DNA of 49,124 nucleotides, taken from a phage. The position numbers and the translations under genes were made by a program. Under the pieces are notes generated by a model that was given only the letters and a program-made list of their open reading frames with translations, did not search any database and was not told where the DNA came from. Where the stretch lies: the sequence record PZ715802.1, one strand, 5' to 3'. Below, piece by piece: positions 4,555 through 47,638 of this stretch. Positions within the stretch are counted from its first letter, which is position 1; each line of letters starts with the position of its first letter.

Positions 4555-4578
4555 AACCCGCCTTGAGCGGGTTTTTTT
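4555..4578 (+). terminator. intrinsic terminator at end of early gene block
   Basis: stem acccgc/gcgggt, loop cttga, then TTTTTTT. Confidence 0.6.
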
Positions 4579-4627
4579 GTGTCTGCAATTTAGCTATAAT
4601 CATGCCTCAACAATGGAGGATTCTATT

Positions 4628-5152
4628 ATGGCAAAAAAAACAGATGCGCCAGCGGCTGAAAGCCTGAATTTTAAGAAACTATGGAATAAGCAATATTCAG
4701 ATCTCATTGGCACTAAACTTGATAAGCGCACAACGCTAACGCCAGAGCAGGTTATGAATTTGATTGTTCAGTATTTTGAATGGGCTGAATCAAACGCTAT
4801 AAAAGCAGGTGAAACGGCAACATTTCAGGGGCGTGTTTATCAGGATACGATTCACAAGCCGCGCATTTTTACATGGGAAGCGTTGAAGTTGTTTTGTGGT
4901 TTTTCCGGCACAGCACTAGCGAAATGGAAATTAAAGCCTGGCTATGATGTTGTAATTGAATTTGCTGAATCTGTAATTAAAGAGCAGAAATACCAGTTAG
5001 CGGCAAACGGAATGATTAACAGCACCATGATCGCAAAAGAGCTTGGCATTGATAAGGGCGACACGTTCAATATTAGCGCTAACGCTGAAACGGAAGTTAA
5101 CACGGAAGAAGCAATGAAAAACGCCGTCGCAAGCGTTCTAAGCAAAATTTAA
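4628..5152 (+). CDS. terminase small subunit (by position)
   Basis: internal ATG of track ORF 4577-5152 with GGAGGA RBS; immediately upstream of large terminase. Confidence 0.5.
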   Translation: MAKKTDAPAAESLNFKKLWNKQYSDLIGTKLDKRTTLTPEQVMNLIVQYFEWAESNAIKAGETATFQGRVYQDTIHKPRIFTWEALKLFCGFSGTALAKWKLKPGYDVVIEFAESVIKEQKYQLAANGMINSTMIAKELGIDKGDTFNISANAETEVNTEEAMKNAVASVLSKI

Positions 5153-5154
5153 AG

Positions 5155-6735
5155 GTGAATGCTATGTTGATATGGGAAGATTTAAGCAAGCTGGAAAAGC
5201 TGGCTATTAAAGAATTGAGTACGCACGATTTTGATACTTTCGTTAAAATCTGGTTCCCGATCCAGCAAGGTGAAAAATGGATTCCTAACTGGCATCACCT
5301 TTATATCGCAAGAGCGATTGATGAAATTATTGAAGGTACACGGAAAGATACGATCTTTAATGTAACTCCAGGCTCAGGTAAGACGGAATTACTTTCTATC
5401 CATTTCCCGCCGTACTCTTATTTAAAACTTAATAAGGTGCGGAACCTAAATATTTCATTTGCCGATACGCTTGTTAAACGAAACAGTAAGCGTGTGCGTG
5501 ATCTGGTTAATTCTCGAGAATGGCAAGAGCTTTTCCCTGCAAAAACTGGTACAAGCAAAGATGATGAATTTCAGGTTTTAAATGACGCTGGCAAAGTTCG
5601 CCTGGAAATGATTAGTAAATCAATGGGCGGTCAGATTACTGGTAGCCGTGGCGGTTACATTACGCCTGGCGTTTATTCAGGTTGCGTAACGCTTGACGAT
5701 CCAGAAAAGCCAGATGATATGTTTTCGAAGGTAAAACGTGAGCGCGGTCAAATGATCGCAAAGAACACCATTCGATCACGTCGCGCACATTCAGAAACGC
5801 CAATTATCGTTATCCAACAGCGTTTACATGCGCAGGATATGACATGGTTTTTAATGAATGGCGGCATGGGTATAGAGTTTGATCAGATCTCTATTCCGGC
5901 GATGGTTACAGAAGAATACGGGAAATCGCTTCCTGATTGGTTGCAGCCGCACTTTGAAAAGGATGTGCTTTCGTCTGAATACATCGTTATTGATGGCGTG
6001 AAGTATTATTCTTTCTGGCCTAGCAAGGAAAGCATTCATGATCTTAAAGCGCTACGCGATGCGGATTTGTACACGTTCCTTTCTCAGTATCAGCAAGAGC
6101 CAATTGCTCTTGGCGGTAACGCAATTAACGTTGGATGGTTCCAGTATTACGGAACCGGAGAAAAATCAACGATGCCAAAACCGGATCGCTTTGATTATAC
6201 GTTTATTACAGCAGATACCGCTCAGAAAGAAGGTGAGCTAAACGACTACAGCGTTTTATGTTATTGGGGCATGTTCAAAGGCCGTATATATTTTATTGAC
6301 GGTGTGCGCGGAAAATGGGAAGCGCCAATGTTAGAAACGCAGTTTAAAGCGTTTGTTAAACAGTGCTGGAACCGTAACAAAGAATGCGGAAACTTGCGTA
6401 AAATTTACGTGGAAGATAAAGCGAGCGGTACAGGTTTGATCCAGAATTGCCGCAAAGCATTTCCGATAGAAATTACTCCAGTGCAACGCGATAAAGACAA
6501 AGTAACGCGCTGCATGGACGCACAGCCAGTGATCAAGAATGGTTATGTTGTATTGCCGGAATCGCATCACATGCTTGCTGAATTTCTGGCAGAGGCGGCG
6601 GCATTCACTTATGATGATAGCCATCCTCATGATGATATTATGGATAACCTTTTTGATGCGGTTAATATTGAGCTTAACCTTGCTGATAATGCGGTTGATA
6701 GAATGAAGCGTTTAGCTGGATTAGCGAAGCGTTAA
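5155..6735 (+). CDS. terminase large subunit
   Basis: 526 aa; Walker A TPGSGKT; C-terminal nuclease-like region; position before portal; track start is GTG at 5155, alternative ATG at 5164. Confidence 0.85.
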   Translation: MNAMLIWEDLSKLEKLAIKELSTHDFDTFVKIWFPIQQGEKWIPNWHHLYIARAIDEIIEGTRKDTIFNVTPGSGKTELLSIHFPPYSYLKLNKVRNLNISFADTLVKRNSKRVRDLVNSREWQELFPAKTGTSKDDEFQVLNDAGKVRLEMISKSMGGQITGSRGGYITPGVYSGCVTLDDPEKPDDMFSKVKRERGQMIAKNTIRSRRAHSETPIIVIQQRLHAQDMTWFLMNGGMGIEFDQISIPAMVTEEYGKSLPDWLQPHFEKDVLSSEYIVIDGVKYYSFWPSKESIHDLKALRDADLYTFLSQYQQEPIALGGNAINVGWFQYYGTGEKSTMPKPDRFDYTFITADTAQKEGELNDYSVLCYWGMFKGRIYFIDGVRGKWEAPMLETQFKAFVKQCWNRNKECGNLRKIYVEDKASGTGLIQNCRKAFPIEITPVQRDKDKVTRCMDAQPVIKNGYVVLPESHHMLAEFLAEAAAFTYDDSHPHDDIMDNLFDAVNIELNLADNAVDRMKRLAGLAKR

Positions 6736-24619: not shown

Positions 24620-24741
24620 AAAGGAGGTAAATCAATGCCCTGGCTTAACGGTCGGGGCATTTTGTTTTCTTTTGTTCTACGGTGTTCACAACTTAATCCG
24701 GCGTAGAATTGAGAACGTTATGACAACAAAAAGAACAAATT

Positions 24742-24799
24742 AAATATCTATATAATACATACACTTAGAGTTTAATTATTATTATATATATCTATTTGT
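24742..24799 (+). repeat. AT-rich repeat copy A (AAATATCTATATAATACAT ... TAATTATTATTATATAT)
   Basis: direct sequence match to second copy at 45514-45570. Confidence 0.6.
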
Positions 24800-25024
24800 A
24801 TCCTTCTTGTTTCCATTGTTCTATATGGTTTGTGGTGGTTGTGTGTTTTGTATTGGTTGATGGTTATATATCACATGGTATGTATTTATATATGGTATGC
24901 GGCTTAAATGCGTGAACAATGGAACACTAAAACAACAACTAGTAAAATCATAAACTTACGATGTGATTTTGTTGTCAACGCTAGTTGTAAACGTATGCAA
25001 AACAAAAAGAACGCTTAAATGGTA

Positions 25025-25052
25025 TTGACTACATGAAACATTCACATATAAT
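25025..25052 (+). promoter_or_regulatory. sigma70 promoter TTGACT-N16-TATAAT
   Basis: near-consensus hexamers 25025-25030 and 25047-25052, about 30 nt upstream of exonuclease ATG. Confidence 0.5.
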
Positions 25053-25080
25053 GCAGACATACCAACGAGAGGATGACTAA

Positions 25081-26136
25081 ATGAGCGATTTTAAAGTTTA
25101 CACCTTTGACCAGTTAACCAACGGTGAATATCACGATCCGAAAGGCTGGTCGGCTGAATACGTTAGCGGTTCAAGCCTAGCAGAAATCTTTGCAAGTTGT
25201 CCGGCAGCATGGAAATACAGACCACGCGAGGAAAGCAAAGCGCTTGTTTTCGGTACGCAGTCACACACAAACTTCCAGAGTAGTGAGCTATTCGCAAAAG
25301 AGTACCGCAGAGCGCCAGCGCCGGAAGATTATGAAAACCTGATTACGAGCCAGGCAGCATTGGCAGCGAAATTAAAATCTTTTGGCCTGACTGGTACAAG
25401 CGGGAAAACGTATCCAGATCTGATTAAGATGATGGTTGATTGTGGTGAGGATCTAAATGTGCAATGGCTCATTGAAATGATCGCAGAAAGCCAAGCGCGA
25501 GCGGATAACGTTGAATTGGTTCCGGCTAAAGATTACGACGCTTGCGTTTCTATGCGCCGTGTTCTTGAGGCAATACCAGAGCACAACGCTTGCATGAATA
25601 GCCCAACAGCACAACGCGAGCTATCAATTTTCGGCACTATAAAAGGCGTGAAAGTCAAAGTAAGGCTTGACCATGTTGATATTTGCAAGGATGTGCTTGC
25701 AACGGTAATTTCCGGCTATGACGGTGAAGGGAATCCGGTTTATGAAACAACGCGATTTGATGAAGCGATTGTGATCACTGATTACAAAACAACGTCAAGC
25801 GCTAACCCAACGGAGTTTTCACGGCTGGCATTTAATCATGGTTACTACTTAAAAATGGCATTGCAGCACGACCTATTCAAGAAAGCGTATCCAGAAGAAA
25901 AACGACCTGTTGTTGTTCGACTTCTGGCGCAAGAAAAGAAAGAGCCGTTTTTACCTATCGCATACCGAATGACAGACGAGCAATTGAAGATCGGACGTCT
26001 GCAATACATGAGCGTTATCAACCAGTTTGCAGAATGCCAGGCTAATGACGTTTGGCCTTCATATGCAAACGGTGAGCCGGAAATTGACCTGCAAACGCCT
26101 GATTGGGTACGCAGACAATACAAAGGTTTTTTATAA
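25081..26136 (+). CDS. PD-(D/E)XK recombination exonuclease
   Basis: ORF track; GAGAGGA RBS; ITDYKTT motif; sits directly upstream of Erf and SSB. Confidence 0.6.
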   Translation: MSDFKVYTFDQLTNGEYHDPKGWSAEYVSGSSLAEIFASCPAAWKYRPREESKALVFGTQSHTNFQSSELFAKEYRRAPAPEDYENLITSQAALAAKLKSFGLTGTSGKTYPDLIKMMVDCGEDLNVQWLIEMIAESQARADNVELVPAKDYDACVSMRRVLEAIPEHNACMNSPTAQRELSIFGTIKGVKVKVRLDHVDICKDVLATVISGYDGEGNPVYETTRFDEAIVITDYKTTSSANPTEFSRLAFNHGYYLKMALQHDLFKKAYPEEKRPVVVRLLAQEKKEPFLPIAYRMTDEQLKIGRLQYMSVINQFAECQANDVWPSYANGEPEIDLQTPDWVRRQYKGFL

Positions 26137-26137
26137 A

Positions 26138-26179
26138 TAGCACTTTTTGCTAAAACAGCCATTCGATGCGTGGTATACT
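26138..26179 (+). promoter_or_regulatory. composite box element: TAGCActtttTGCTA, 21 nt, TATACT
   Basis: palindrome 26138-26152; -10-like hexamer in loop of gcgtg/cacgc hairpin. Confidence 0.55.
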
Positions 26180-26211
26180 ACACGCATCAACCAACAAGAG
26201 AGGAAATAAAA

Positions 26212-27708: not shown

Positions 27709-30072
27709 TTACTTAGCAATCTGAACAAACATTGCTTGCATTTCCGCAATTGCGGCTTTCATTTCTGCGATCTCGTTTTTCAACTCTTTAATTTCCTCCT
27801 GTTGTTTCTCTATTTTTTCTTTCTGCTCTTTGAATGCGTTAACCAAAAGAGCTACAACGCCATTATAGTTAATGCCTTTGATTGCCTCGCCTTTTGGATC
27901 TAGCTGACCATCATTATTCAAAGAATGAACCGCTTCCGGCAAAACCCTTTCAACATCTTGTGCGATCAATCCAGCCTCAATACTATAAACGCTGTTTTCA
28001 TCTTCAATTAGATTGTTGCGCTTGTAGTAAGTATAACCAGTTAGATAATCAATTTTGTCGGATGCCGTTTCGATCTCTTTTAGATGTGCTTTCATCCTTA
28101 TGTCAGATGTGCTGATCCATTGGTTACAACTTGCATTTCCGGCGTGATTAAATATAAATTGCGCTCCCTTAACATAAAGATGTGTTTCAGCACCGCCACT
28201 CGACCAGTTAACGGCATCCATTCCAGTAATCCAAGAATCACCCCAATGAACAACCTTAAATACGTTAACGGCTGCGTCTTTTGCTGTAATCTCGCAAAGC
28301 ATTCCAGCACCACGATCACGCCAGGCATCAAAAGCGCCTTCCTGAATTTGACCGCCAATCATGGCATTTGCCCCACCAGACCTAATGCCAGCAACCCTAA
28401 TGCCGTTTGCATCGTCACTAATAGGCCATATACTCAATAACCCGTACATGTTAAAATCATTAGCTTGGCATGTTGCAATATTTCTACCGTTGCACATTAC
28501 TTGCAAAATGCCATCACCGCCCCACTTAAAACCTGTGTCAGTGTCACCAATTACTAACGCATTACTTCCAAGCGCATTACCAATACCCCTACCGATAACT
28601 ATTGAATTGTAATTTAGCGCGTTACCGCTTTCATCAAATTGATAATAGTTTGTATCACCTCCTTCCCTAGTGACTTGTATTGTTGATTTTGCTAATCCAC
28701 CTTGAATTTCGTTGTAAATTCTTGAGTATGAAAGCTGTACATTTTCTGGACTTTTGTTTATTAAATAAAGAATTCCAGAGTTTGCAGAGTTTTTTTCTGT
28801 TAGGCTTATCCCTCTAAAAACAGGAATGTCAGTTTCACCAATGCCAAAGTTATTCCTTGCTTGGCTTACGTTTGCTGCACCTGTGCCGCCCTGTAGAATT
28901 CCAAGAGGAATATACTGTTGCGATGCGATATTCCAGTAACCCCAACCATCGTTACCAACTGTAAGGTATTTGATCTTATCCGGCGACCGAATAAACGTTT
29001 CACCATCGCCCTGATCAAATCGGTCAATCTGGAAATTAATTCTTGCTTGCGTTACGTTTTCCGCACCAGTACCGCCAGCACCAACAGAAAGAGCGGATGT
29101 GCTGTTATCGCTATTTCTTGCAACTCGCCACTCGCCGTTGTTTGCGATCCGTAATTCATAAGTCCATGCAGGGTTACGAAATGAGTTATAATCACCTGGA
29201 TTTTGACCCTTAACTGAATTAACAGCCTCAACTTTCAGCGCCTCCCTTGCTAAATCTTTATTAGCAAGATCATTAAGATTCTGATCCTTATGCAGAAGGT
29301 TTTCAGGGTTAACTTGTTGTGCCCATTGGCGAGCTTCATCACGCGCAGTTTCAGCGCCTTGTTTAGCGTTTCCGGCTGCAACCTTTGATTGTTCAGCCAG
29401 ATCACGAGCTTCCACGGCTTCATCACGAGCGTTGAAAGCCTCCTGCTTAATGGCTTCCGTTTCTCTAACAGCAGCGTCTTTAATGCCTTGCGTTTGCGTC
29501 TTTATTGCGTCAGTGTCTGCCTTAATCTGATTGGTTTCATAAACAGCAGCATCCTTAATCCGTTGAGTTTCTGCAATCGCAGTATCTTTAATTTGCGTAG
29601 TCTCAGAAACAGCGGCATCCTTAATAGCTTGCGTGTCGTTTTTTAATTGCTCAGTTGCGGCGCGATCTGCATCCGTTTTTTGTGCGGAAGACTCAGCGCG
29701 AGCAACAAGATCCTGTAATGTTTTAAGGTCAAAGTTTTTGAAGAATTCAATTGCTTCCTCAATAACCGTTTCTTTACTTTGGTAATATCTCAGCGTTTCC
29801 GCAACATCTTGCGCCATTCCATCTACCGTTAAAGAGTCATTCAACAGGATCACATAATTTCCGTTTTCTACTGGCTCGCCGTCAGTCTGGATCGCTTTCA
29901 TTTCCGTGTCGCTTACAATATCGCTAATCACAGCCAATTTAAGAGGCGATGTGAGAAATACGATTGTTGCGCCAGTGCGGATAAGAGAAAGCGGCTCACG
30001 CCATTTTGTGCCAGTACCAGTGATAACGCCTTGTGCGTCCATTGCAGCCGTACCAGTGCGATATAAAGCCAT
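27709..30072 (-). CDS. side tail fibre with C-terminal intramolecular chaperone domain
   Basis: 787 aa; internal tandem IKDAAV.ET repeats; C-terminus DYLTGYTYY...IEAGLIAQDVERVLPEAV typical of self-cleaving chaperone domains. Confidence 0.8.
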   Translation of the reverse strand: MALYRTGTAAMDAQGVITGTGTKWREPLSLIRTGATIVFLTSPLKLAVISDIVSDTEMKAIQTDGEPVENGNYVILLNDSLTVDGMAQDVAETLRYYQSKETVIEEAIEFFKNFDLKTLQDLVARAESSAQKTDADRAATEQLKNDTQAIKDAAVSETTQIKDTAIAETQRIKDAAVYETNQIKADTDAIKTQTQGIKDAAVRETEAIKQEAFNARDEAVEARDLAEQSKVAAGNAKQGAETARDEARQWAQQVNPENLLHKDQNLNDLANKDLAREALKVEAVNSVKGQNPGDYNSFRNPAWTYELRIANNGEWRVARNSDNSTSALSVGAGGTGAENVTQARINFQIDRFDQGDGETFIRSPDKIKYLTVGNDGWGYWNIASQQYIPLGILQGGTGAANVSQARNNFGIGETDIPVFRGISLTEKNSANSGILYLINKSPENVQLSYSRIYNEIQGGLAKSTIQVTREGGDTNYYQFDESGNALNYNSIVIGRGIGNALGSNALVIGDTDTGFKWGGDGILQVMCNGRNIATCQANDFNMYGLLSIWPISDDANGIRVAGIRSGGANAMIGGQIQEGAFDAWRDRGAGMLCEITAKDAAVNVFKVVHWGDSWITGMDAVNWSSGGAETHLYVKGAQFIFNHAGNASCNQWISTSDIRMKAHLKEIETASDKIDYLTGYTYYKRNNLIEDENSVYSIEAGLIAQDVERVLPEAVHSLNNDGQLDPKGEAIKGINYNGVVALLVNAFKEQKEKIEKQQEEIKELKNEIAEMKAAIAEMQAMFVQIAK

Positions 30073-31820: not shown

Positions 31821-31831
31821 ATTTTTATATA

Positions 31832-31873
31832 TAGCACTTTTTGCTAAAAAACTTGATTAAGTTTGTGTATGAT
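31832..31873 (+). promoter_or_regulatory. composite box element: TAGCActtttTGCTA, 21 nt, TATGAT
   Basis: palindrome 31832-31846 upstream of helicase ATG 31909. Confidence 0.55.
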
Positions 31874-31897
31874 ATGCCGCAAATGGCATTTAGTCAA
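31869..31897 (-). promoter_or_regulatory. sigma70-like promoter TTGACT-N17-TATCAT for HTH gene, face-to-face with box element
   Basis: read on minus strand; its -10 (31869-31874) overlaps the + strand -10 (31868-31873). Confidence 0.45.
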
Positions 31898-31908
31898 AAG
31901 GATAAAAA

Positions 31909-34704: not shown

Positions 34705-35445
34705 ATGGCTAAAGATATTCAGGACGTAGCAACTATTGACACTTTCGAGCCGGAAATGGATTTTCATGAATTGCAATACGGAAAATATTCAGATATTGCA
34801 TTGCGCTCAGGTGGTCATTATCAGCCAGTTAGAGAAAACCCATTATTTAAGGTTAGCGGCAACCGTTATGCAGGAAGTAAAACGCCGGACGTTGTTCGCG
34901 ATTTGTGGGAAACGCCAGATGAAATTGTTGATTATCTTGCTGAACGTTACGGCAAATATGATCTTGATGCAGCCGCAACGGAAGATAATAAAAAATGCGA
35001 TAAGTTTTACAGCAAAGAAACAAACTGCTTAAAGCGCTGGTGGGGTAGCAATAAGCACGTTTGGTTAAATCCACCATACAGCAATCCAGATCCATTTATC
35101 AAAAAAGCAATTGAGCAGATGGAACACGGAAACCAGATTGATATTTTACTTCCGGCTGATAATTCAACTGCATGGTTTAGTGACGCACAAAAACACGCGG
35201 CAGAAATTATCTGGATTACTGGTGAAACCTGGAAGGATGAAGAAGGTCGCGAATATTCCAGAACTGGTCGAGTAGCGTTTATTTCTGGCATGACAGGTGA
35301 ACAAGTACAGGGCAACAATAAAGGCAGCGTGATTTTTATCATGCGCCAACTTAAAGAAGGTGAGCAACAGCAAACTCACTATGTGAAGATTAGCGACATT
35401 TGCCCTTCCGTAAAAAATAAACGAGCCAAAGCGCGGAGCATTTAA
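34705..35445 (+). CDS. dam: DNA N6-adenine methyltransferase (phage Dam type)
   Basis: ORF track; AGAGG RBS; catalytic NPPY motif in WLNPPYSNP. Confidence 0.8.
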   Translation: MAKDIQDVATIDTFEPEMDFHELQYGKYSDIALRSGGHYQPVRENPLFKVSGNRYAGSKTPDVVRDLWETPDEIVDYLAERYGKYDLDAAATEDNKKCDKFYSKETNCLKRWWGSNKHVWLNPPYSNPDPFIKKAIEQMEHGNQIDILLPADNSTAWFSDAQKHAAEIIWITGETWKDEEGREYSRTGRVAFISGMTGEQVQGNNKGSVIFIMRQLKEGEQQQTHYVKISDICPSVKNKRAKARSI

Positions 35446-36228: not shown

Positions 36229-37344
36229 ATGAGTGCAGCAAAAATTACTGACGAACAACTTATAGCAGAAAGGGCGGCAGGTTTAAAACTGCGTGAGATT
36301 GCGGAAAAATACGGAATGAGCTTGCGCCAGGTTGAGCACCGTCACAGCAAATTGGCTAAGCGTGGCGAAATCTCAACTATCGGATCACCTGGATTTGCTG
36401 TAATTGGTGAATCACAGCTTAAACGTGCAAATGGTGAGGTTGTAATGACCTGGACTAAAACGCACAAAGACAAAGCGCAATTAGATGCAATAATGCAAGC
36501 GGCTATGGCTGCATTTTCGGAAGAATTGCCACGAGTAGAACCGCAACCGGAAAAGATTGTTGACTATTCGAAAACTCTTGCGCTATATCCGATCTTTGAT
36601 ATTCACATTGGCGCAATGGCGCACAAGCATGAAAGCGGTGAGAATTACGACACGGCGACGGCAGAAAAGATCATGAATGAATTCTTTGATTATGCCGTCG
36701 ATAAAGCACCGAATAGCGAAAAGGCTGTATTGCTGATTGGTGGTGATATGATTCACAGTGACGGTCTGGAGGCTGTAACACCTGCAAGCGGTCACGTTTT
36801 GGATCAGGATTCGCGATATGCGAAACTTGTTTATGTTGCCATTCGAGCCACGCGCAGAGCAGTAAGCCGAATGCTGGAAAAACATAAAGAGGTTGAATTG
36901 CAGATCATTGAAGGTAATCACGACCAATCAGGAATGATCTGGCTACGTGCTGCAATGGCGGCGGCGTATGAGAATGAGCCACGCGTAAAGGTTGATGTTT
37001 CTCCGCGCGTCGTGCATCACACTCAATATGGTAAAACTTTCCTAGCTTATCATCATGGTCACACTGTACGCAAGCCAGAAACGCTTTTAATGATGTGTGC
37101 AGCGGATTGGCGGGAAGATTTCGGAAACTCCAATTCAATGTATGCGCATGTAGGGCATTGGCATCACCAGACTGTTACAGAAACGAGCCTTGGCATTGTT
37201 GAGGTGCATAACACTATGGCAGCAAAAGACGCTTACGCCGCGCGTGGTGGCTGGCGTTCACGTCGCAGGGCGGCGGTAATTATTTATGATAAGGAATATG
37301 GCGAAATAGGGCGGTTTATGTTTTACCCCGAAATGATTGCTTAA
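36229..37344 (+). CDS. metallophosphoesterase (calcineurin-like) with N-terminal HTH
   Basis: ORF track; AGAGGA RBS; N-terminal LKLREIAEKYGMSLRQV; phosphoesterase motifs DIHIG, GGDMIHSD, GNHD, HHGH. Confidence 0.6.
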   Translation: MSAAKITDEQLIAERAAGLKLREIAEKYGMSLRQVEHRHSKLAKRGEISTIGSPGFAVIGESQLKRANGEVVMTWTKTHKDKAQLDAIMQAAMAAFSEELPRVEPQPEKIVDYSKTLALYPIFDIHIGAMAHKHESGENYDTATAEKIMNEFFDYAVDKAPNSEKAVLLIGGDMIHSDGLEAVTPASGHVLDQDSRYAKLVYVAIRATRRAVSRMLEKHKEVELQIIEGNHDQSGMIWLRAAMAAAYENEPRVKVDVSPRVVHHTQYGKTFLAYHHGHTVRKPETLLMMCAADWREDFGNSNSMYAHVGHWHHQTVTETSLGIVEVHNTMAAKDAYAARGGWRSRRRAAVIIYDKEYGEIGRFMFYPEMIA

Positions 37345-41673: not shown

Positions 41674-41715
41674 TTATGCCGGATACGTGATCCGGCGTTT
41701 TAACAAAAAGTGCTA
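41674..41715 (-). promoter_or_regulatory. composite box element (minus): TAGCActtttTGTTA, 21 nt, CATAAT
   Basis: palindrome 41701-41715; spacer hairpin gccggatc/gatccggc. Confidence 0.55.
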
Positions 41716-42408
41716 TTTCTGATTTGCCAGGCATACAGCAAGCGCAAAGCCGCGCGGAGTGAGTGAGCGGATCAGCTTTGTTCGCTTAGACTTGCCGCCG
41801 AGCTTTTGCCAGCCTGGATTGTTGTTCCCTGTTGGCAATACTGCGTTTGTATCCGGCATTACAAAGCCGTTACCCGTCCAAAGACAAGTTTTTTTGGTGT
41901 ACGCATCGCGAGCGGGAATGATTTCAGGAAAGTGAGGATGTTTATCATCTTCCGGCAACAGACCTCCAAACGCGCAAGGATGAAAGATAAAATCAGGTTG
42001 CCGCCACATTGACGACAGAACACTAACAGGATTCTCAATCATGTATGGAACGTTAAACCGATCCGCAATATTGGCAGCAATCTTTGCCGTTTCAACCGCC
42101 TTTTTCTGGAAGTCTGGATCACGTTCACGCTTTGCGGCAAAGTGACGCGATCCACTAACAGCTAAATCAGTGCATGGAGGGAATGCAATAATAAAATCTG
42201 GAGTGCCAAAGACGCGCATCATTGCGTTATGCTGGAATGATAATCCGATCCACTCATTCAAATAAACTATGTTGGGATGAGTCACGCGCACTGATTGGTA
42301 ATCACCATGATCAGCACCGTCGAAATTAAAGCACAGCACTTTGTGACCACGTTCAGCCCACGGCAACGCAGCATAACCAGAACCATCAAATAGTGAGAAA
42401 ATAAGCAT
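41713..42408 (-). CDS. compact DNA cytosine-5 methyltransferase-like protein
   Basis: internal ATG of track ORF 41713-42462 with AAAGGA RBS; motif I LFDGSG, motif IV FPPC, motif VI ENP with spacing as in M.HhaI-type enzymes; only about 231 aa. Confidence 0.5.
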   Translation of the reverse strand: MLIFSLFDGSGYAALPWAERGHKVLCFNFDGADHGDYQSVRVTHPNIVYLNEWIGLSFQHNAMMRVFGTPDFIIAFPPCTDLAVSGSRHFAAKRERDPDFQKKAVETAKIAANIADRFNVPYMIENPVSVLSSMWRQPDFIFHPCAFGGLLPEDDKHPHFPEIIPARDAYTKKTCLWTGNGFVMPDTNAVLPTGNNNPGWQKLGGKSKRTKLIRSLTPRGFALAVCLANQK

Positions 42409-42516
42409 GTTTAAATCCTTTCTGTATGACCTTGTAAGGCGTTTTGTTTGTAGGTGTGACAATCGTATTAGTTACGGCCTGAAATCGCGACATAATGCGA
42501 AACAGGCCGCTATTTT

Positions 42517-44611: not shown

Positions 44612-44642
44612 CGTTAATCTCCTGATTGGTTTCGATGGGGTA

Positions 44643-44685
44643 ACTATATCAAGATACCCCGATCCGGTTTTAACAAAAAATGCTA
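44643..44685 (-). promoter_or_regulatory. composite box element (minus): TAGCAtttttTGTTA, 22 nt, TATAGT
   Basis: palindrome 44671-44685. Confidence 0.55.
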
Positions 44686-44686
44686 T

Positions 44687-45121
44687 TTACAGCCATTCGC
44701 CGGAAACAATGAAATCAGTGAAATCGTCATGATCCAAAATGCTGTGATAGCCAGTGCAATAATCATTTTTAACCATGTTACCACGCAAACGCACATAATC
44801 AGCCTTTCGATCCGTAATCCAACGAATAAAGCGAGCGTTACGTTGTGGTATCGTTCCGGCGTAAGCCTCTTTGAATCCAATGTGTGCGATGAATGCCACA
44901 AAGCGGATTTGCAAGCCTGGATTGTCTTTCTTTGCCTCGTTAACCAGGTCGCGGAAGTTTTCACGCGTTGGCTTGACCGGAACCAATTCGCCTAACTCGA
45001 TCATGCGGTTGAAGTCTGAAACACTGGAAGATGATTCCATAAACAGCCCATCGCTACCAAACATCACAACGCCGCTTTCGATGAAGTAAGTGTGTCCGTT
45101 GTATTTGTTGGTGTATTTCAT
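44687..45121 (-). CDS. hypothetical protein
   Basis: internal ATG of track ORF 44687-45157 with GAGGA RBS; first gene after the minus-strand box at 45153-45195. Confidence 0.5.
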   Translation of the reverse strand: MKYTNKYNGHTYFIESGVVMFGSDGLFMESSSSVSDFNRMIELGELVPVKPTRENFRDLVNEAKKDNPGLQIRFVAFIAHIGFKEAYAGTIPQRNARFIRWITDRKADYVRLRGNMVKNDYCTGYHSILDHDDFTDFIVSGEWL

Positions 45122-45152
45122 CGTGAATTCCTCATTTCGTTTCGATGAAGTA

Positions 45153-45195
45153 ATCATAGCAATTCGCGTCTGATTGGTTTTAACAAAAAGTGCTA
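45153..45195 (-). promoter_or_regulatory. composite box element (minus): TAGCActtttTGTTA, 22 nt, TATGAT
   Basis: palindrome 45181-45195; first promoter of the minus-strand block. Confidence 0.55.
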
Positions 45196-45205
45196 TTCAT
45201 GCAAT

Positions 45206-45233
45206 AGACCGATTGGTCTAGACCGTTTGGTCT
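45206..45233. promoter_or_regulatory. operator-like tandem 14-bp palindromic repeats AGACCGATTGGTCT / AGACCGTTTGGTCT
   Basis: two adjacent copies differing at one base; includes perfect 10-bp palindrome GGTCTAGACC. Confidence 0.45.
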
Positions 45234-45269
45234 AATGAACGCATCGTTTTGTGTATCGAACGCATTCAT

Positions 45270-45297
45270 GATCCTGTTACGTGATCGTTATATGATC
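45270..45297. repeat. cluster of three GATC sites within 28 bp
   Basis: GATC at 45270, 45283, 45294 inside a non-coding region; the phage encodes a Dam-type methyltransferase. Confidence 0.4.
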
Positions 45298-45513
45298 AGA
45301 TGATGATTGATGTGTGAGATTTTGTGATTGAAATTGATTTGATTTGATTAGATTTGAGTAGTGAGTGAGTAGAAATAATCACACCTTGCCGATCAGTGAA
45401 AACTTTTCCCGCAAAACATCACTCCATGCTCCGCGCGTTTCGTTTTGTTCCTCGTTGTTTTCCGCCAGACCTTCCGCAGTTTAGCGCAACGTTACACAAC
45501 ACGTATAACAACA

Positions 45514-45570
45514 AAATATCTATATAATACATTGAAAAGTAAGATAATTATTATTATATATCTATATTGT
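45514..45570 (+). repeat. AT-rich repeat copy B
   Basis: matches copy A at 24742-24799. Confidence 0.6.
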
Positions 45571-45784
45571 TATATAACTTGTTTTGCTTGTTTCTTGTGA
45601 TATTGATACCCATTTGCGGATTGATAGAGTATAAAATTATAAGATAGGTGCTCTTATTTATTATGGGTGATGCTGATTTTTTGCGAAATAGTGTAACGAT
45701 TTAGAACACCGTTGATTTGAAAGGATAAATTTTCAAATCCTGTTATATTGCGTGATGTTTTTGTTGCCTAATCAAAAATAACAC

Positions 45785-45812
45785 TTGACGCATAAGCCAG
45801 GTTTGCTAAGAT
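45785..45812 (+). promoter_or_regulatory. sigma70-like promoter TTGACG-N16-TAAGAT
   Basis: hexamers at 45785-45790 and 45807-45812, about 35 nt upstream of ATG 45847. Confidence 0.45.
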
Positions 45813-45846
45813 TTCTGCATCGAGCAACAACGGAGGATAACCAATC

Positions 45847-46134
45847 ATGGTAAGGGGCAAAATCGTAAAGCGTGACCTATCCATAGTTGATGCAACGCCA
45901 GAAGATGCAACCAAAGATATCATGCGCCTAATGTACATAGCGCGGATAATTGAGGCGGCAAAACCAAACAGGCTGTATTACATCGACGTTAAGGCATCCG
46001 GTCGAGATGTTAACTCATTGCGCCAGGCAATAAACACGATTGCGAAAGAGGATCGCAGAACCATTAAAACAATAACCACTGATAACGGCTATATCGGCTT
46101 TGTTATCATCGACGTTAAAGAAGCGTTTGTGTAA
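45847..46134 (+). CDS. hypothetical protein
   Basis: ORF track; GGAGGA RBS. Confidence 0.5.
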   Translation: MVRGKIVKRDLSIVDATPEDATKDIMRLMYIARIIEAAKPNRLYYIDVKASGRDVNSLRQAINTIAKEDRRTIKTITTDNGYIGFVIIDVKEAFV

Positions 46135-46822: not shown

Positions 46823-46865
46823 TAGCACTTTTTGTTAAAACTCGATTGGGGTAGTTTGGCATAAT
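46823..46865 (+). promoter_or_regulatory. composite box element: TAGCActtttTGTTA, 22 nt, CATAAT
   Basis: palindrome 46823-46837; spacer hairpin ggggta/tacccc. Confidence 0.6.
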
Positions 46866-46897
46866 TACCCCATCGAAACGAAACGAGGAAAACACAA

Positions 46898-47563: not shown

Positions 47564-47606
47564 TAGCACGAATTGCTAAAACAGAATCCTGGGGTTGCGG
47601 TATAGT
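47564..47606 (+). promoter_or_regulatory. composite box element: TAGCAcgaatTGCTA, 22 nt, TATAGT
   Basis: palindrome 47564-47578; spacer hairpin ggggtt/aacccc. Confidence 0.6.
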
Positions 47607-47638
47607 AACCCCACACCAAACGAAAGAAGGAAATCAAA

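What the first reader, a model, noticed from the sequence alone, without database searches (positions are those of the whole stretch)
45158..45846. 690-bp repeat-dense non-coding region: operator-like tandem palindromes, GATC cluster and iteron-like repeats
Between the divergent minus and plus blocks lie, in order: a box promoter (45153-45195, minus), two tandem 14-bp palindromic sites (45206-45233), an 8-bp direct repeat GAACGCAT twice (45236, 45258), three GATC sites within 28 bp (45270-45297), a run of GATTT/TGATT units and GAGTAG/TGAGTG repeats (45300-45380), the second AT-rich repeat copy (45514-45570) and a sigma70 promoter (45785-45812). GATC clustering together with a phage Dam enzyme and iteron-like repeats is the pattern expected at a methylation-sensitive replication origin or a tightly regulated switch.
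Basis: partly seen in the sequence, partly recalled or inferred. Interest (0 to 1): 0.65.

Follow-up and report, generated by a model that had tools for sequence, protein, structure and literature searches.

The report
Phage packaging-start and early-promoter hub
This 0.7-kb gene-free stretch of a T1/TLS-like phage genome is where DNA packaging most likely starts (the pac site); it lies between two outward-facing promoters and next to a very AT-rich module that may be a replication origin, so it is real and conserved, but its kind was already mapped in the close relative TLS.

Summary
The window is a Tlsvirus (Drexlerviridae) genome.

The region has two parts.

**Left core, about 45177-45420.** It is unique in the genome and strongly conserved, although both flanks are mosaic. 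It holds:
- a 21-nt box promoter facing left;
- two tandem palindromes;
- three invariant GATC sites;
- a one-strand array of TGAT/TGATTG/TGAG units.

The same one-strand array recurs at this locus in every Drexlerviridae genus examined. Three published mappings place the packaging start (pac) at the array's right edge, with packaging going rightward:
- restriction mapping in TLS (record position 1 = window 45317);
- read-derived termini in MSK;
- read-derived termini in SU57.

**Right part, 45420-45846.** It is one of two copies of a module. The other copy is at 24640-25080. Each copy has the least stable AT-rich DNA in the genome, flanking short GT(G/T)AAC-type repeats and a sigma-70 early promoter. 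It is origin-like but untested.

The GATC trio is conserved (12 of 12 columns) but is not family-wide. A methylation-sensitive pac of the P1 type is possible only as a lineage-specific addition. The replication-origin reading of the GATC/TGATT part is not supported.

The parts
45153..45197 (-). Leftward 'DR box' promoter: box ATAGCACTTTTTGTTAAA (45179-45196) and a -10-like TATGAT (45153-45158). It drives the leftward gene block, whose first gene probably starts at the ATG at 45121.
   Evidence: It is one of 18 boxes in the window. In 17 of 18, a -10-like hexamer follows exactly 19-20 nt after the box. It equals DR18 of TLS and is nearly invariant in 11 relatives.
45205..45234 (.). Two tandem 16-bp palindromes (TAGACC-N4-GGTCTA, overlapping by TA). 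Probably an accessory operator for a dimeric protein; the binder is unknown.
   Evidence: Unique in the window. TRF period 14. Invariant in 9 of 11 Tlsvirus phages: UTK0007 has one uncompensated change and CF1 has the whole segment replaced. The replaced allele is also found in U136B and ElisaCorrea. LL5 carries a symmetric double substitution that keeps the dyad: TATACC...GGTATA. As hairpins they are weak, -6.8 kcal/mol.
45237..45265 (+). GAACGCAT twice, part of a 21-nt imperfect direct repeat (45224-45265).
   Evidence: family D3, 81% identity. Only moderately conserved. The 8-mer repeat alone is at chance level.
45270..45297 (.). Three GATC (Dam) sites spaced 13 and 11 bp apart. A fourth, less conserved site is at 45391-45394.
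   Evidence: 12 of 12 GATC columns are invariant while the flanking bases differ between haplotypes (TGATCC versus CGATCA and so on). T1 has two GATC sites 10 bp apart (start to start) at the equivalent place. The other genera examined have none there. The fourth site is lost in 3 of 11 phages.
45299..45372 (+). One-strand array of TGAT(T/G), AGATTT and TGAG(T) units ending in GTGAGTGAGTAG (45361-45372). Proposed recognition part of the pac site.
   Evidence: TGAT density is the window maximum and lies beyond all 200 shuffles. The blocks ATGATTGATGTGTGAG and GATTTGATTAGATTTGAGTAG are invariant or nearly so. TGATTG occurs 15 times against 1.2 expected, and never on the other strand, in the equivalent segments of 5 genera. 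The same GTGAGTGAGTG motif is found in MSK and SU57.
45317..45407 (+). Inferred pac 'end region', where the first cut is made; packaging proceeds rightward.
   Evidence: TLS record position 1 equals window 45317, and the TLS record end equals 45316. The TLS HindIII site at 5876 and EcoRV site at 2733 fit the published ~5.9-kb (5,882 bp) pac-HindIII fragment and the ~2.7-kb EcoRV fragment. The MSK PhageTerm start (36,862) and the SU57 record end lie 17-35 nt after GTGAGTGAGTG. GenBank records GS156/GS71/GS166 are cut at 45374|45375 and YSP2/KKP3830 at 45406|45407.
45405..45419 (+). Conserved block TTTCCCGCAAAACAT at the right edge of the conserved core. Function unknown.
   Evidence: 15 of 20 columns are invariant in 45400-45419, against 1-5 of 20 in the next 100 bp.
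45490..45710 (.). AT-rich module. It consists of CGTTACAC (45490-45497), the AT block (45516-45575, beginning CTATATAATA), and the inverted copy GTGTAACG (45691-45698) followed by GAACAC (45704-45709). It is a candidate DNA-unwinding element or origin, or else promoter-upstream architecture.
   Evidence: Least stable duplex in the window. It is homologous to 24640-25095 (alignment A1). Inverted repeats flank the AT block here, in window copy 1 and in T1 copy 1. T1 also has exactly two such blocks. Comparable AT blocks are present in Sushi, IsaakIselin, PaulSarasin, MSK and SU57.
45785..45849 (+). Sigma-70 early promoter (TTGACG, 16 nt, TAAGAT with TG), ribosome-binding site GGAGGA (45832-45837) and the start codon of the first rightward gene (45847).
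   Evidence: Equivalent to TLS P01. The -35 element ACTTGAC is conserved in relatives.
24640..25080 (+). Second copy of the AT-rich module: TGTTCAC at 24683, AT block 24737-24796, GTGAACA at 24912, GAACAC at 24922, promoter TTGACT-N17-TATAAT at 25025-25052. It lies upstream of the exonuclease gene at 25081.
   Evidence: Equivalent to TLS T50...P51.
4577..6735 (+). Small terminase (4577-5152) and large terminase (5155-6735). These are the proteins expected to recognise and cut pac, about 8 kb downstream on the circular map.
   Evidence: PF16677 GP3_package, E 6e-9. phrog_606 terminase small subunit. ORFs.
34705..35445 (+). Phage Dam (GATC N6-adenine methyltransferase).
   Evidence: PF05869, E 6.6e-63.

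Best explanation
The interval is the 'left-end' control hub of a T1/TLS-like (Drexlerviridae, Tlsvirus) phage.

The conserved left core (about 45260-45420) is the packaging initiation site, pac. The proposed mechanism is as follows:
1. A one-strand array of TGAT/TGATTG/TGAG units is recognised by the P22-gp3-type small terminase.
2. The large terminase makes the first cut in the concatemer within about 45317-45407.
3. Headful packaging then runs rightward, through the early genes towards the terminase and structural genes.

The hub sits in a stretch that is probably not transcribed. It is bounded by two promoters that fire outwards. On the left is a phage-specific box promoter (45153-45197). 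On the right is a sigma-70 early promoter (45785-45812).

The three invariant GATC sites next to the array are probably a lineage-specific accessory. They may tie terminase (or SeqA-like) binding to the methylation state produced by the phage Dam, by analogy with P1 pac.

The palindrome pair is a dispensable accessory operator.

What is shown: the anatomy, the conservation, the genome-wide uniqueness, and the position of mapped termini in relatives. What is inferred: small-terminase binding, any methylation dependence, and the exact cut positions in this phage.
For: 1. **Identity.** The region is 97% identical to Tlsvirus phages.
2. **TLS mapping.** In TLS, a submolar pac-HindIII fragment and a ~2.7-kb EcoRV sub-fragment place pac at the record start. 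That start is window 45317. The TLS restriction sites at 5876 and 2733 fit the published sizes.
3. **Read-derived termini in a different subfamily.** MSK has a PhageTerm start at 36,862, forward direction, p = 1.6e-9. The SU57 end was chosen at a step in read coverage. Both fall in the orthologous gap, 17-35 nt after the shared GTGAGTGAGTG motif. Both lie between the TGAT array and the AT block.
4. **Record boundaries.** Several GenBank records are cut at 45375 or 45407.
5. **Conservation.** The core is conserved while both flanks are mosaic.
6. **Uniqueness and strand bias.** The TGAT array is unique in the genome. It is strand-specific in 5 genera: TGATTG 15 observed against 1.2 expected, and 0 on the opposite strand. 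A single oriented site is what directional packaging needs.
7. **Terminase.** A P22-gp3-family small terminase is encoded.
8. **GATC.** All 12 GATC columns are invariant, a phage Dam is present, and TLS virion DNA is GATC-methylated.
Against: - There are no data on virion DNA ends for this phage.
- The base-level pac assignment in TLS rests only on a 6-nt resemblance to P22 pac. AGATTT occurs 26 times in the window.
- Record boundaries may partly reflect convention rather than measurement.
- Terminase binding is untested.
- The TGA[TG] units are not significantly phased with the DNA helix (p = 0.73).
- In the P22 family, pac lies inside the small-terminase gene. Here it would be about 8 kb upstream.
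- The GATC trio is missing in four other lineages, so methylation control cannot be a general feature.
- According, earlier literature proposed ATATA repeats, that is the AT block, as the T1 pac.
Confidence: 0.74

Rival explanations
1. The AT-rich module in the right half (45490-45710), together with its twin at 24640-25080, is a replication origin. The short GT(G/T)AAC-type repeats on both sides of the least stable DNA would be bound by a phage initiator. One candidate is the DUF3987 ATPase, which has a C-terminal winged helix. Outward transcription from the flanking promoters would help unwinding. This reading is compatible with pac lying in the left core.
For: - The AT block is the least stable duplex in the window, and T1 has exactly two equivalent blocks more than 5.5 SD from the mean.
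- Repeats flank the block in inverted orientation in three of the four module copies examined.
- The TLS allele has cGTGAACAcGTGAACAgcgatGGAACA with a 9-bp period. This resembles the P4 ori/crr type-1 repeats TGTTCACC, seen as GGTGAACAG in tandem next to AT-rich DNA.
- The phage primase shares the PF08273 zinc ribbon with P4 alpha.
- The TLS authors state that the origin is unknown.
Against: - There is no replication data at all.
- The repeat units differ between the two copies within one genome and between genera, and they are only 6-9 nt long.
- T1 copy 2 has direct rather than inverted repeats.
- The ATPase has no sequence similarity to P4 alpha and gave no sequence match to any PDB chain.
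- The winged-helix fold is generic.
- Both copies sit about 200 bp upstream of early sigma-70 promoters, so a transcriptional role explains them equally well.
Confidence: 0.3
2. The AT-rich module is promoter-upstream architecture for the two strong early sigma-70 promoters (P01 and P51). It could be curved or easily melted DNA, with sites for a regulator or nucleoid protein. On this reading it is not an origin.
For: - Each of the two copies lies at a similar distance upstream of one of the only three consensus sigma-70 promoters predicted in TLS.
- The whole unit of about 400 bp, promoter included, is what is duplicated.
- One IHF-like site with one mismatch lies inside the block.
Against: - The third sigma-70 promoter (the P57 equivalent, about 31.85 kb) has no such module (context).
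- The distance from the repeats to the -35 element varies from about 20 to about 100 bp between genera. That does not suit a fixed activator geometry.
- 200 bp is too far for an UP element.
Confidence: 0.35
3. The left core (GATC trio plus TGATT repeats) is a methylation-sensitive replication origin with iterons, rather than pac.
For: - The units are repeated, strand-specific and conserved family-wide.
- An AT-rich block lies about 150 bp away in every genus examined.
- The GATC sites are conserved and a phage Dam is present.
Against: - Mapped packaging termini fall at this array in three phages.
- There are no DnaA boxes.
- The GATC sites are not part of AT-rich 13-mers.
- The GATC trio is absent in four lineages that keep the array.
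- The units are 5-7 nt long and irregularly spaced, unlike 17-22-bp iterons.
- The second AT module has no such array.
Confidence: 0.1
4. The palindromes and the GATC trio form an epigenetic transcription switch for the leftward box promoter, like OxyR and Dam at Mu mom or agn43. A regulator would bind only unmethylated or hemimethylated DNA.
For: - Both elements lie 10-100 bp upstream of the box, on its upstream side.
- There are three closely spaced GATC sites, as in mom-type switches (from my own knowledge, not tested here).
- The palindromes keep their dyad symmetry in LL5 through a symmetric double change.
Against: - The palindromes are absent in three viable phages that keep the GATC trio, so the two elements are not one obligate unit.
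- No regulator was identified. The ORF that KMB25 calls 'GntR-family' has no HTH or GntR match here.
- The 17 other box promoters work without these elements.
Confidence: 0.12

Closest known systems
pac / left-end intergenic region of phage TLS (Tlsvirus type species; PMC11447400) and of T1
   Same: It is the orthologous locus, and the left core is nearly identical in sequence. It has the same DR18 box and a P01-type promoter. It lies in the same place between the leftward small-gene block and the rightward early block. T1 has the same architecture.
   Different: The TLS paper names only AGATTT as pac. It reports no iteron-like repeats anywhere and finds the highest GATC density in the helicase gene. 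The TGATTG array, the invariant GATC trio, the palindromes and the duplicated AT module are not described there. The right half of the gap is a different mosaic allele in this phage.
P22 / Sf6-type pac recognised by a gp3-family small terminase
   Same: The small terminase belongs to the same family, PF16677. Packaging is headful with limited permutation. The first cuts are expected to be spread over tens of bases, as at P22 pac (this P22 feature is from my own knowledge). The site is asymmetric.
   Different: P22 pac is a 22-bp site inside the small-terminase gene (one search gives its sequence). Here the site is a ~100-bp array of short repeats in a non-coding gap about 8 kb upstream of terS. 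Only a 6-nt match (AGATTT) is shared.
P1 pac (seven TGATCA/G hexamers, Dam-regulated cleavage, IHF site)
   Same: GATC-containing hexamers ((T/C)GATC(A/C/G)) are clustered beside the cleavage region, with another copy in inverted orientation on the far side (45391). The phage encodes its own Dam.
   Different: There are only 3+1 sites instead of 4+3. The base before GATC is not conserved. No IHF consensus lies between them. The terminase family is different. The trio is not conserved across the family. Methylation dependence is untested.
P4 satellite ori/crr (type-1 repeats TGTTCACC bound by the winged-helix domain of the alpha primase-helicase)
   Same: Short TGTTCAC/GTGAACA-like repeats, partly tandem with a 9-11 bp period, flank AT-rich DNA. 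There are two separated cis copies per genome. The primase zinc ribbon is shared. An ATPase with a C-terminal winged helix is encoded.
   Different: The ATPase is DUF3987, not D5_N/DUF5906/Pox_D5, and has no detectable similarity to alpha. The repeat sequence varies between copies. Nothing is known about binding or origin activity.
oriC / lambda ori-type origins (DnaA boxes or 19-bp iterons, GATC-rich AT 13-mers)
   Same: GATC sites, short repeats and an AT-rich block co-occur within 350 bp.
   Different: There are no DnaA boxes and no long iterons. The GATC sites are not inside the AT-rich element. The region is not inside an initiator gene.

Membership tests
Headful-packaging pac site | Virion DNA ends, or the first concatemer cut, map to the site, and packaging is unidirectional. 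| tested here: met
   This was not measured for this phage. Published termini were mapped onto the orthologous sequence. TLS record start equals window 45317, and its restriction sites fit the published fragments. The MSK start at 36,862 (forward) and the SU57 end lie 17-35 nt after the shared GTGAGTGAGTG motif.
Headful-packaging pac site | A single, oriented (asymmetric) site per genome. | tested here: met
   The TGAT array is the unique maximum in the window. GTGAGTGAGT occurs once. TGATTG occurs 15 times on one strand and 0 times on the other across 5 genera.
Headful-packaging pac site | Conserved in relatives that share the terminase. | tested here: met
   The core 45177-45420 is conserved in 11 Tlsvirus phages despite mosaic flanks. 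The array motif recurs in Tunavirus, Webervirus, Henuseptimavirus, Changchunvirus and Braunvirinae.
Headful-packaging pac site | Specific binding by the small terminase and cleavage by the large terminase. | not testable with these tools
   Only the genes were identified.
P1-type Dam-regulated pac | Several TGATC(A/G) hexamers on both sides of the cut, each needed for cleavage. | tested here: inconclusive
   There are three sites on the left and one inverted site on the right. The GATC cores are invariant, but the preceding base varies (T or C) and the right-hand site is lost in 3 of 11 phages. The trio is absent in four other lineages.
P1-type Dam-regulated pac | An IHF site between the hexamer clusters. 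| tested here: not met
   The only IHF-like match with one mismatch or fewer in 45150-45850 is at 45525, inside the AT block.
P1-type Dam-regulated pac | Cleavage depends on adenine methylation. | not testable with these tools
   The phage Dam is present, and TLS virion DNA is methylated.
Iteron-type or oriC-type replication origin | DnaA boxes and/or three or more regularly spaced iterons of about 17-22 bp. | tested here: not met
   No TTATNCACA match with one mismatch or fewer. The repeats are 5-9-nt units with irregular spacing.
Iteron-type or oriC-type replication origin | An AT-rich DNA-unwinding element next to initiator sites. | tested here: inconclusive
   The AT block is the least stable DNA in the genome and is flanked by short inverted repeats. 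It is 150 bp from the TGAT array, it is duplicated elsewhere, and its repeats are short and variable.
Iteron-type or oriC-type replication origin | Replication initiates here. | not testable with these tools
   The cumulative GC skew follows the direction of transcription and is not informative.
P4-type origin (alpha protein plus TGTTCACC repeats) | The initiator is homologous to P4 alpha (D5_N / SF3 helicase / Pox_D5 origin-binding domain). | tested here: not met
   The window ATPase is DUF3987. It has no pairwise similarity to alpha, and a sequence search of PDB chains found no match. Only a generic winged-helix fold is present at its C-terminus.
Sigma-70 promoter | -35 and -10 hexamers with a 16-18 nt spacer upstream of a gene with a ribosome-binding site. 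| tested here: met
   TTGACG, 16 nt, TAAGAT with TG (9 of 12 matches) at 45785-45812. The number of such matches in the scanned region is no more than in shuffles (4 found against a mean of 5.6). The site is supported instead by its position, the ribosome-binding site GGAGGA, and conservation of the -35 element in relatives and in TLS P01.
HutC/GntR-type operator (considered because of the GGTCTAGACC core) | A GntR-family regulator is encoded or identifiable. | tested here: not met
   The ortholog of the ORF that KMB25 calls 'GntR-family' (1962-2459) has no Pfam match. It matches only PHROG families of unknown function.

The most novel reading that the evidence does not exclude
The duplicated AT-rich modules (45490-45710 and 24680-24930; also two copies in T1) are the so far unidentified replication origins of T1-family phages. 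Short GT(G/T)AAC-type repeats on both sides of the most easily melted DNA would be bound by a phage initiator, perhaps the DUF3987 ATPase with its C-terminal winged helix. This would be a P4-like logic built from unrelated parts. One origin would sit directly beside pac. In Tlsvirus and T1, the invariant GATC trio would make pac recognition or cleavage depend on phage Dam methylation. That would couple packaging to the replication and methylation state, as in P1.
Probability: 0.22. Interest if true: 0.6.

Novelty: new member of a known kind. Interest (0 to 1): 0.42.

Why it matters
T1-like phages are classic laboratory contaminants. They are also generalized transducers and candidates for phage therapy (TLS and U136B use TolC).

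- **pac.** Knowing pac at motif level, rather than as 'AGATTT', would let one build or disable packaging signals, predict pseudo-pac sites and transduction hot spots, and open assemblies consistently.
- **Family-wide array.** A one-strand TGATTG array at mapped termini across the family gives a concrete target for small-terminase binding studies.
- **Origin.** The duplicated AT-rich module gives the first specific, testable candidate for the unknown replication origin. The TLS authors explicitly list the origin as not found.
- **Box repeat.** The fixed-distance -10 after every 21-nt box bears on another question that paper leaves open: what the repeat is for.

Tried and rejected
1. **Helical phasing of the TGA[TG] units.** It is not significant in the window (Rayleigh-type test, p = 0.73). 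Sushi and IsaakIselin show a period of about 9.8 bp, but with only 6-9 sites.
2. **GATC clustering as a statistical anomaly.** 27% of shuffles reach 3 sites within 28 bp. Only the conservation argument survives.
3. **DnaA boxes and IHF sites.** None, and one weak match, respectively.
4. **Known RNA families.** Rfam gave only two chance-level matches, with E above 0.3 and far below the gathering scores.
5. **Small ORFs inside the gap.** ORFs of 37-51 aa exist, and some are annotated in KMB25. They lie in the least conserved, mosaic part, so I do not consider them genes.
6. **GntR/HutC operator idea for GGTCTAGACC.** No such regulator was found.
7. **Palindromes as hairpins or cruciforms.** They reach only -6.8 kcal/mol with 5-bp stems, so a protein site is more likely.
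8. **Homology of the DUF3987 ATPase to P4 alpha.** None by BLASTP or phmmer, and a sequence search of PDB chains found nothing. The fold search returns only generic winged helices. The high rank of the DpnI winged helix is not specific.
9. **IMG/VR scan with the invariant 16-mer.** It returned only 6 true Tlsvirus loci, which added LL5 and one further contig; the rest were chance hits.
10. **Original T1 and Rtp genome papers.** Neither is held in the library. What they say about the T1 pac is known only second-hand.
Full report
**What the window is.** The interval and its flanks are 92-99% identical to Tlsvirus phages of the Drexlerviridae, such as KMB25, Stevie, Sazh, phSE-2 and LL5. The DUF3987 ATPase of the window is 100% identical to that of LL5. 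The gene order matches T1 and TLS:
- a rightward block of small early genes, then terminase, then structural genes;
- recombination genes;
- leftward and rightward replication genes;
- a leftward block of small genes that ends at the interval.

The window appears to be a complete, circularly permuted genome, so the rightward block that starts at 45847 continues at position 1.

**Check of the observation.** All listed elements are present (details in the observation check). Their statistical weight differs.
- The TGAT-rich run is exceptional. It has 10 copies in 77 bp on one strand; the next best place in the window has 7, and the best of 200 dinucleotide shuffles has 7.
- The palindrome pair is unique in the genome.
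- The AT block is the least stable 60-bp duplex in the genome, 5.4 SD from the mean.
- The GATC cluster alone is not unusual, since 27% of shuffles match it. The GAACGCAT pair alone is at chance level.

The left boundary should be moved. The leftward gene most likely starts at 45121, because the ATG at 45157 overlaps the promoter's -10.

**Conservation splits the interval in two.** I aligned 11 Tlsvirus phages.
- Columns 45177-45420 are strongly conserved, with 13-18 of 20 invariant in most bins.
- The genes to the left and everything from 45420 to about 45800 are mosaic, with 1-5 of 20 invariant and three or more alleles.

Within the conserved core:
- the box promoter is almost invariant;
- the blocks ATGATTGATGTGTGAG and GATTTGATTAGATTTGAGTAG are invariant or nearly so;
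- all 12 columns of the three GATC sites are invariant, while 12 of the 29 surrounding columns differ between haplotypes (TGATCC against CGATCA, and so on; p about 0.007).

The palindromes are invariant in 9 of 11 phages; UTK0007 has one uncompensated change in a half-site. They are wholly replaced in CF1, and also in U136B and ElisaCorrea, so they are dispensable. LL5 has a symmetric double substitution (TATACC...GGTATA) that keeps the dyad. As hairpins they are weak. A dimeric protein site is the simplest reading, and no binder was found.

**The same architecture across the family.** The equivalent divergent gap cannot be aligned to the window in these phages:
- T1 (Tunavirus);
- Sushi (Webervirus);
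- IsaakIselin (Henuseptimavirus);
- PaulSarasin (Changchunvirus);
- MSK and SU57 (Braunvirinae).

Yet it has the same order of parts:
1. a leftward box promoter;
2. a one-strand array of (G/A)TGATTG-like units;
3. about 150 bp of ordinary sequence;
4. an AT block of about 60 bp, which in most of the phages examined begins with a TATAAT-like motif (CTATAAT in Tlsvirus, CTTATAAT in T1);
5. two or three short GT(G/T/A)AAC(A)-type repeats;
6. a sigma-70 promoter and the first rightward gene.

Across five genera, TGATTG occurs 15 times where 1.2 are expected, and never on the opposite strand. The GATC trio is not part of this common plan. T1 has two sites 10 bp apart (start to start) plus one further on, and the others have none at that place.

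**What the left core is.**
- The TLS paper reports a submolar HindIII fragment of about 6 kb and an EcoRV sub-fragment of about 2.7 kb. It places pac at the start of the TLS record, choosing the exact base only by resemblance to P22 pac (AGATTT).
- The TLS record ends with ...GATCAGATGATGATTGATGTGTG and starts with AGATTTTGTGATTGAAATTG... That junction is window 45316|45317.
- The TLS HindIII and EcoRV sites are at 5876 and 2733. The physical mapping therefore puts the end within roughly 100-150 bp of 45317 (my estimate of gel-sizing error). That range is the conserved core.
- Independently, the MSK paper reports a PhageTerm start at 36,862, forward direction, p = 1.6e-9.
- The SU57 authors opened their record at a PhageTerm end that coincided with a step in read coverage.
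- In both sequences these points lie in the orthologous gap, 17 and 35 nt after GGTGAGTGAGTGAATG, between the TGAT array and the AT block.
- The window has GTGAGTGAGTAG at 45361-45372, so the equivalent positions are about 45375-45407.
- That is also where the records of GS156/GS71/GS166 (45375) and YSP2/KKP3830 (45407) are cut.
- The phage encodes a small terminase of the P22 gp3 family.

I therefore read the array as the recognition part of pac, with imprecise first cuts at its right edge and rightward packaging. A single oriented site in a stretch between two outward-facing promoters fits that role.

**The GATC trio.**
- Its invariance argues for function.
- The phage has a Dam of the PF05869 type, and TLS virion DNA is GATC-methylated.
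- The nearest precedent is P1 pac. Its seven TGATCA/G hexamers make binding and cutting depend on methylation.
- The resemblance is partial: 3+1 sites, a variable preceding base, and no IHF site.
- The trio is missing from four lineages that keep the array.

It can therefore only be a lineage-specific addition. I give it as a hypothesis, not a finding. A transcriptional switch for the leftward promoter is an alternative with less support.

**The right half.**
- Region 45420-45846 aligns over about 400 bp with 24640-25095. That second region is a long gap after the tail-fibre gene and its terminator, upstream of the exonuclease gene. It corresponds to T50...P51 in TLS.
- Each copy carries an extreme AT block, the two least stable sites in the genome, and ends in a sigma-70 promoter.
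- T1 likewise has exactly two such blocks, at 214-273 and 30009-30068, the latter upstream of its exonuclease VIII gene.
- Short repeats flank the AT block, inverted in three of four copies:
  - CGTTACAC / GTGTAACG in this copy;
  - GGTGTTCAC / GTGAACA..GGAACAC in the other window copy;
  - a 32-nt arm pair around GTGTTAATC / GATTAACAC x3 in T1.
- The TLS allele (cGTGAACAcGTGAACA) recalls the type-1 repeats TGTTCACC of the P4 origin and crr.
- The phage primase shares a zinc ribbon with P4 alpha.
- The DUF3987 ATPase has a confidently modelled C-terminal winged helix.

This makes an origin plausible. However, there is no homology to P4 alpha, the repeats are short and vary between copies, and a promoter-upstream role explains the duplication equally well. 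I rate the origin reading at about 0.3 and the architectural or regulatory reading at about 0.35.

**Verdict.** The interval is a conserved cis-acting hub with selected GATC sites, but the features taken for an origin mark the packaging start site. The kind of element is known: the pac and left-end region of T1-like phages, mapped in TLS. The motif-level anatomy and the duplicated module are not in the literature I could read. I file it as a new member of a known kind, with moderate interest.

Noticed in passing
window, 18 sites (for example 1084, 2456, 26137, 46822, 47563 on +; 45196, 44686, 43867, 41716, 41036 on -): The 21-nt 'DR' box (ATAGCAY-N3-KKG-N-TAAA) is followed in 17 of 18 cases by a -10-like hexamer (TATAGT, CATAAT, TATGAT and similar) exactly 19-20 nt later. 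The TTG(C/T)TA inside the box is then 22 nt from the -10, too far for a normal -35. This looks like a phage-specific promoter class. The TLS paper lists the function of this repeat as an open question.
   Followed up: partly
window 46845-46868, 47590-47611, 26162-26185, 1108-1128; minus strand about 44640-44665: In many box promoters the -10 lies in the loop or at the edge of a short inverted repeat. The arms differ from promoter to promoter but stay complementary, for example GGGGTA...TACCCC, GGGGTT...AACCCC and GATGCGTG...CACGCATC. I found no explanation for this.
   Followed up: no
window 24620-25080: This is a second long non-coding gap of 460 bp. It holds a terminator, the twin AT-rich module and a consensus sigma-70 promoter (TTGACT-N17-TATAAT, 25025-25052) upstream of the PDDEXK exonuclease gene.
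   Followed up: partly
[not shown]
   Followed up: partly
window 41713-42462 (-): A second DNA methyltransferase (phrog_757) is present besides Dam. It has no Pfam match. By eye its sequence has C5-cytosine-methylase-like motifs (FSLFDGSG, PPCTD), and KMB25 annotates it as a cytosine methyltransferase.
   Followed up: no
window 31821-31908: This is a compact face-to-face promoter pair. The sigma-70 promoter equivalent to TLS P57 (minus strand) overlaps a box promoter on the plus strand, between the HTH-regulator/primase genes and the SF2 helicase gene.
   Followed up: no
GenBank OR786094.1 (hits H22, H58): A record named 'Streptococcus phage MBBL140', with host Streptococcus agalactiae, matches this enterobacterial Tlsvirus region at 94-96% identity and is opened at the TLS start. 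The host assignment looks wrong, or the record is a contaminant.
   Followed up: no
window 44687-45157 (-): The mechanical ORF start at 45157 overlaps the promoter's -10. The real start is probably the ATG at 45121, preceded by GAGGAA. That gives a 144-aa protein, as annotated in KMB25 and as the PHROG profile aligns.
   Followed up: yes
whole window: GATC is over-represented: 284 observed against 182 expected from base composition. This fits a self-methylating phage that has no selection against the site.
   Followed up: no
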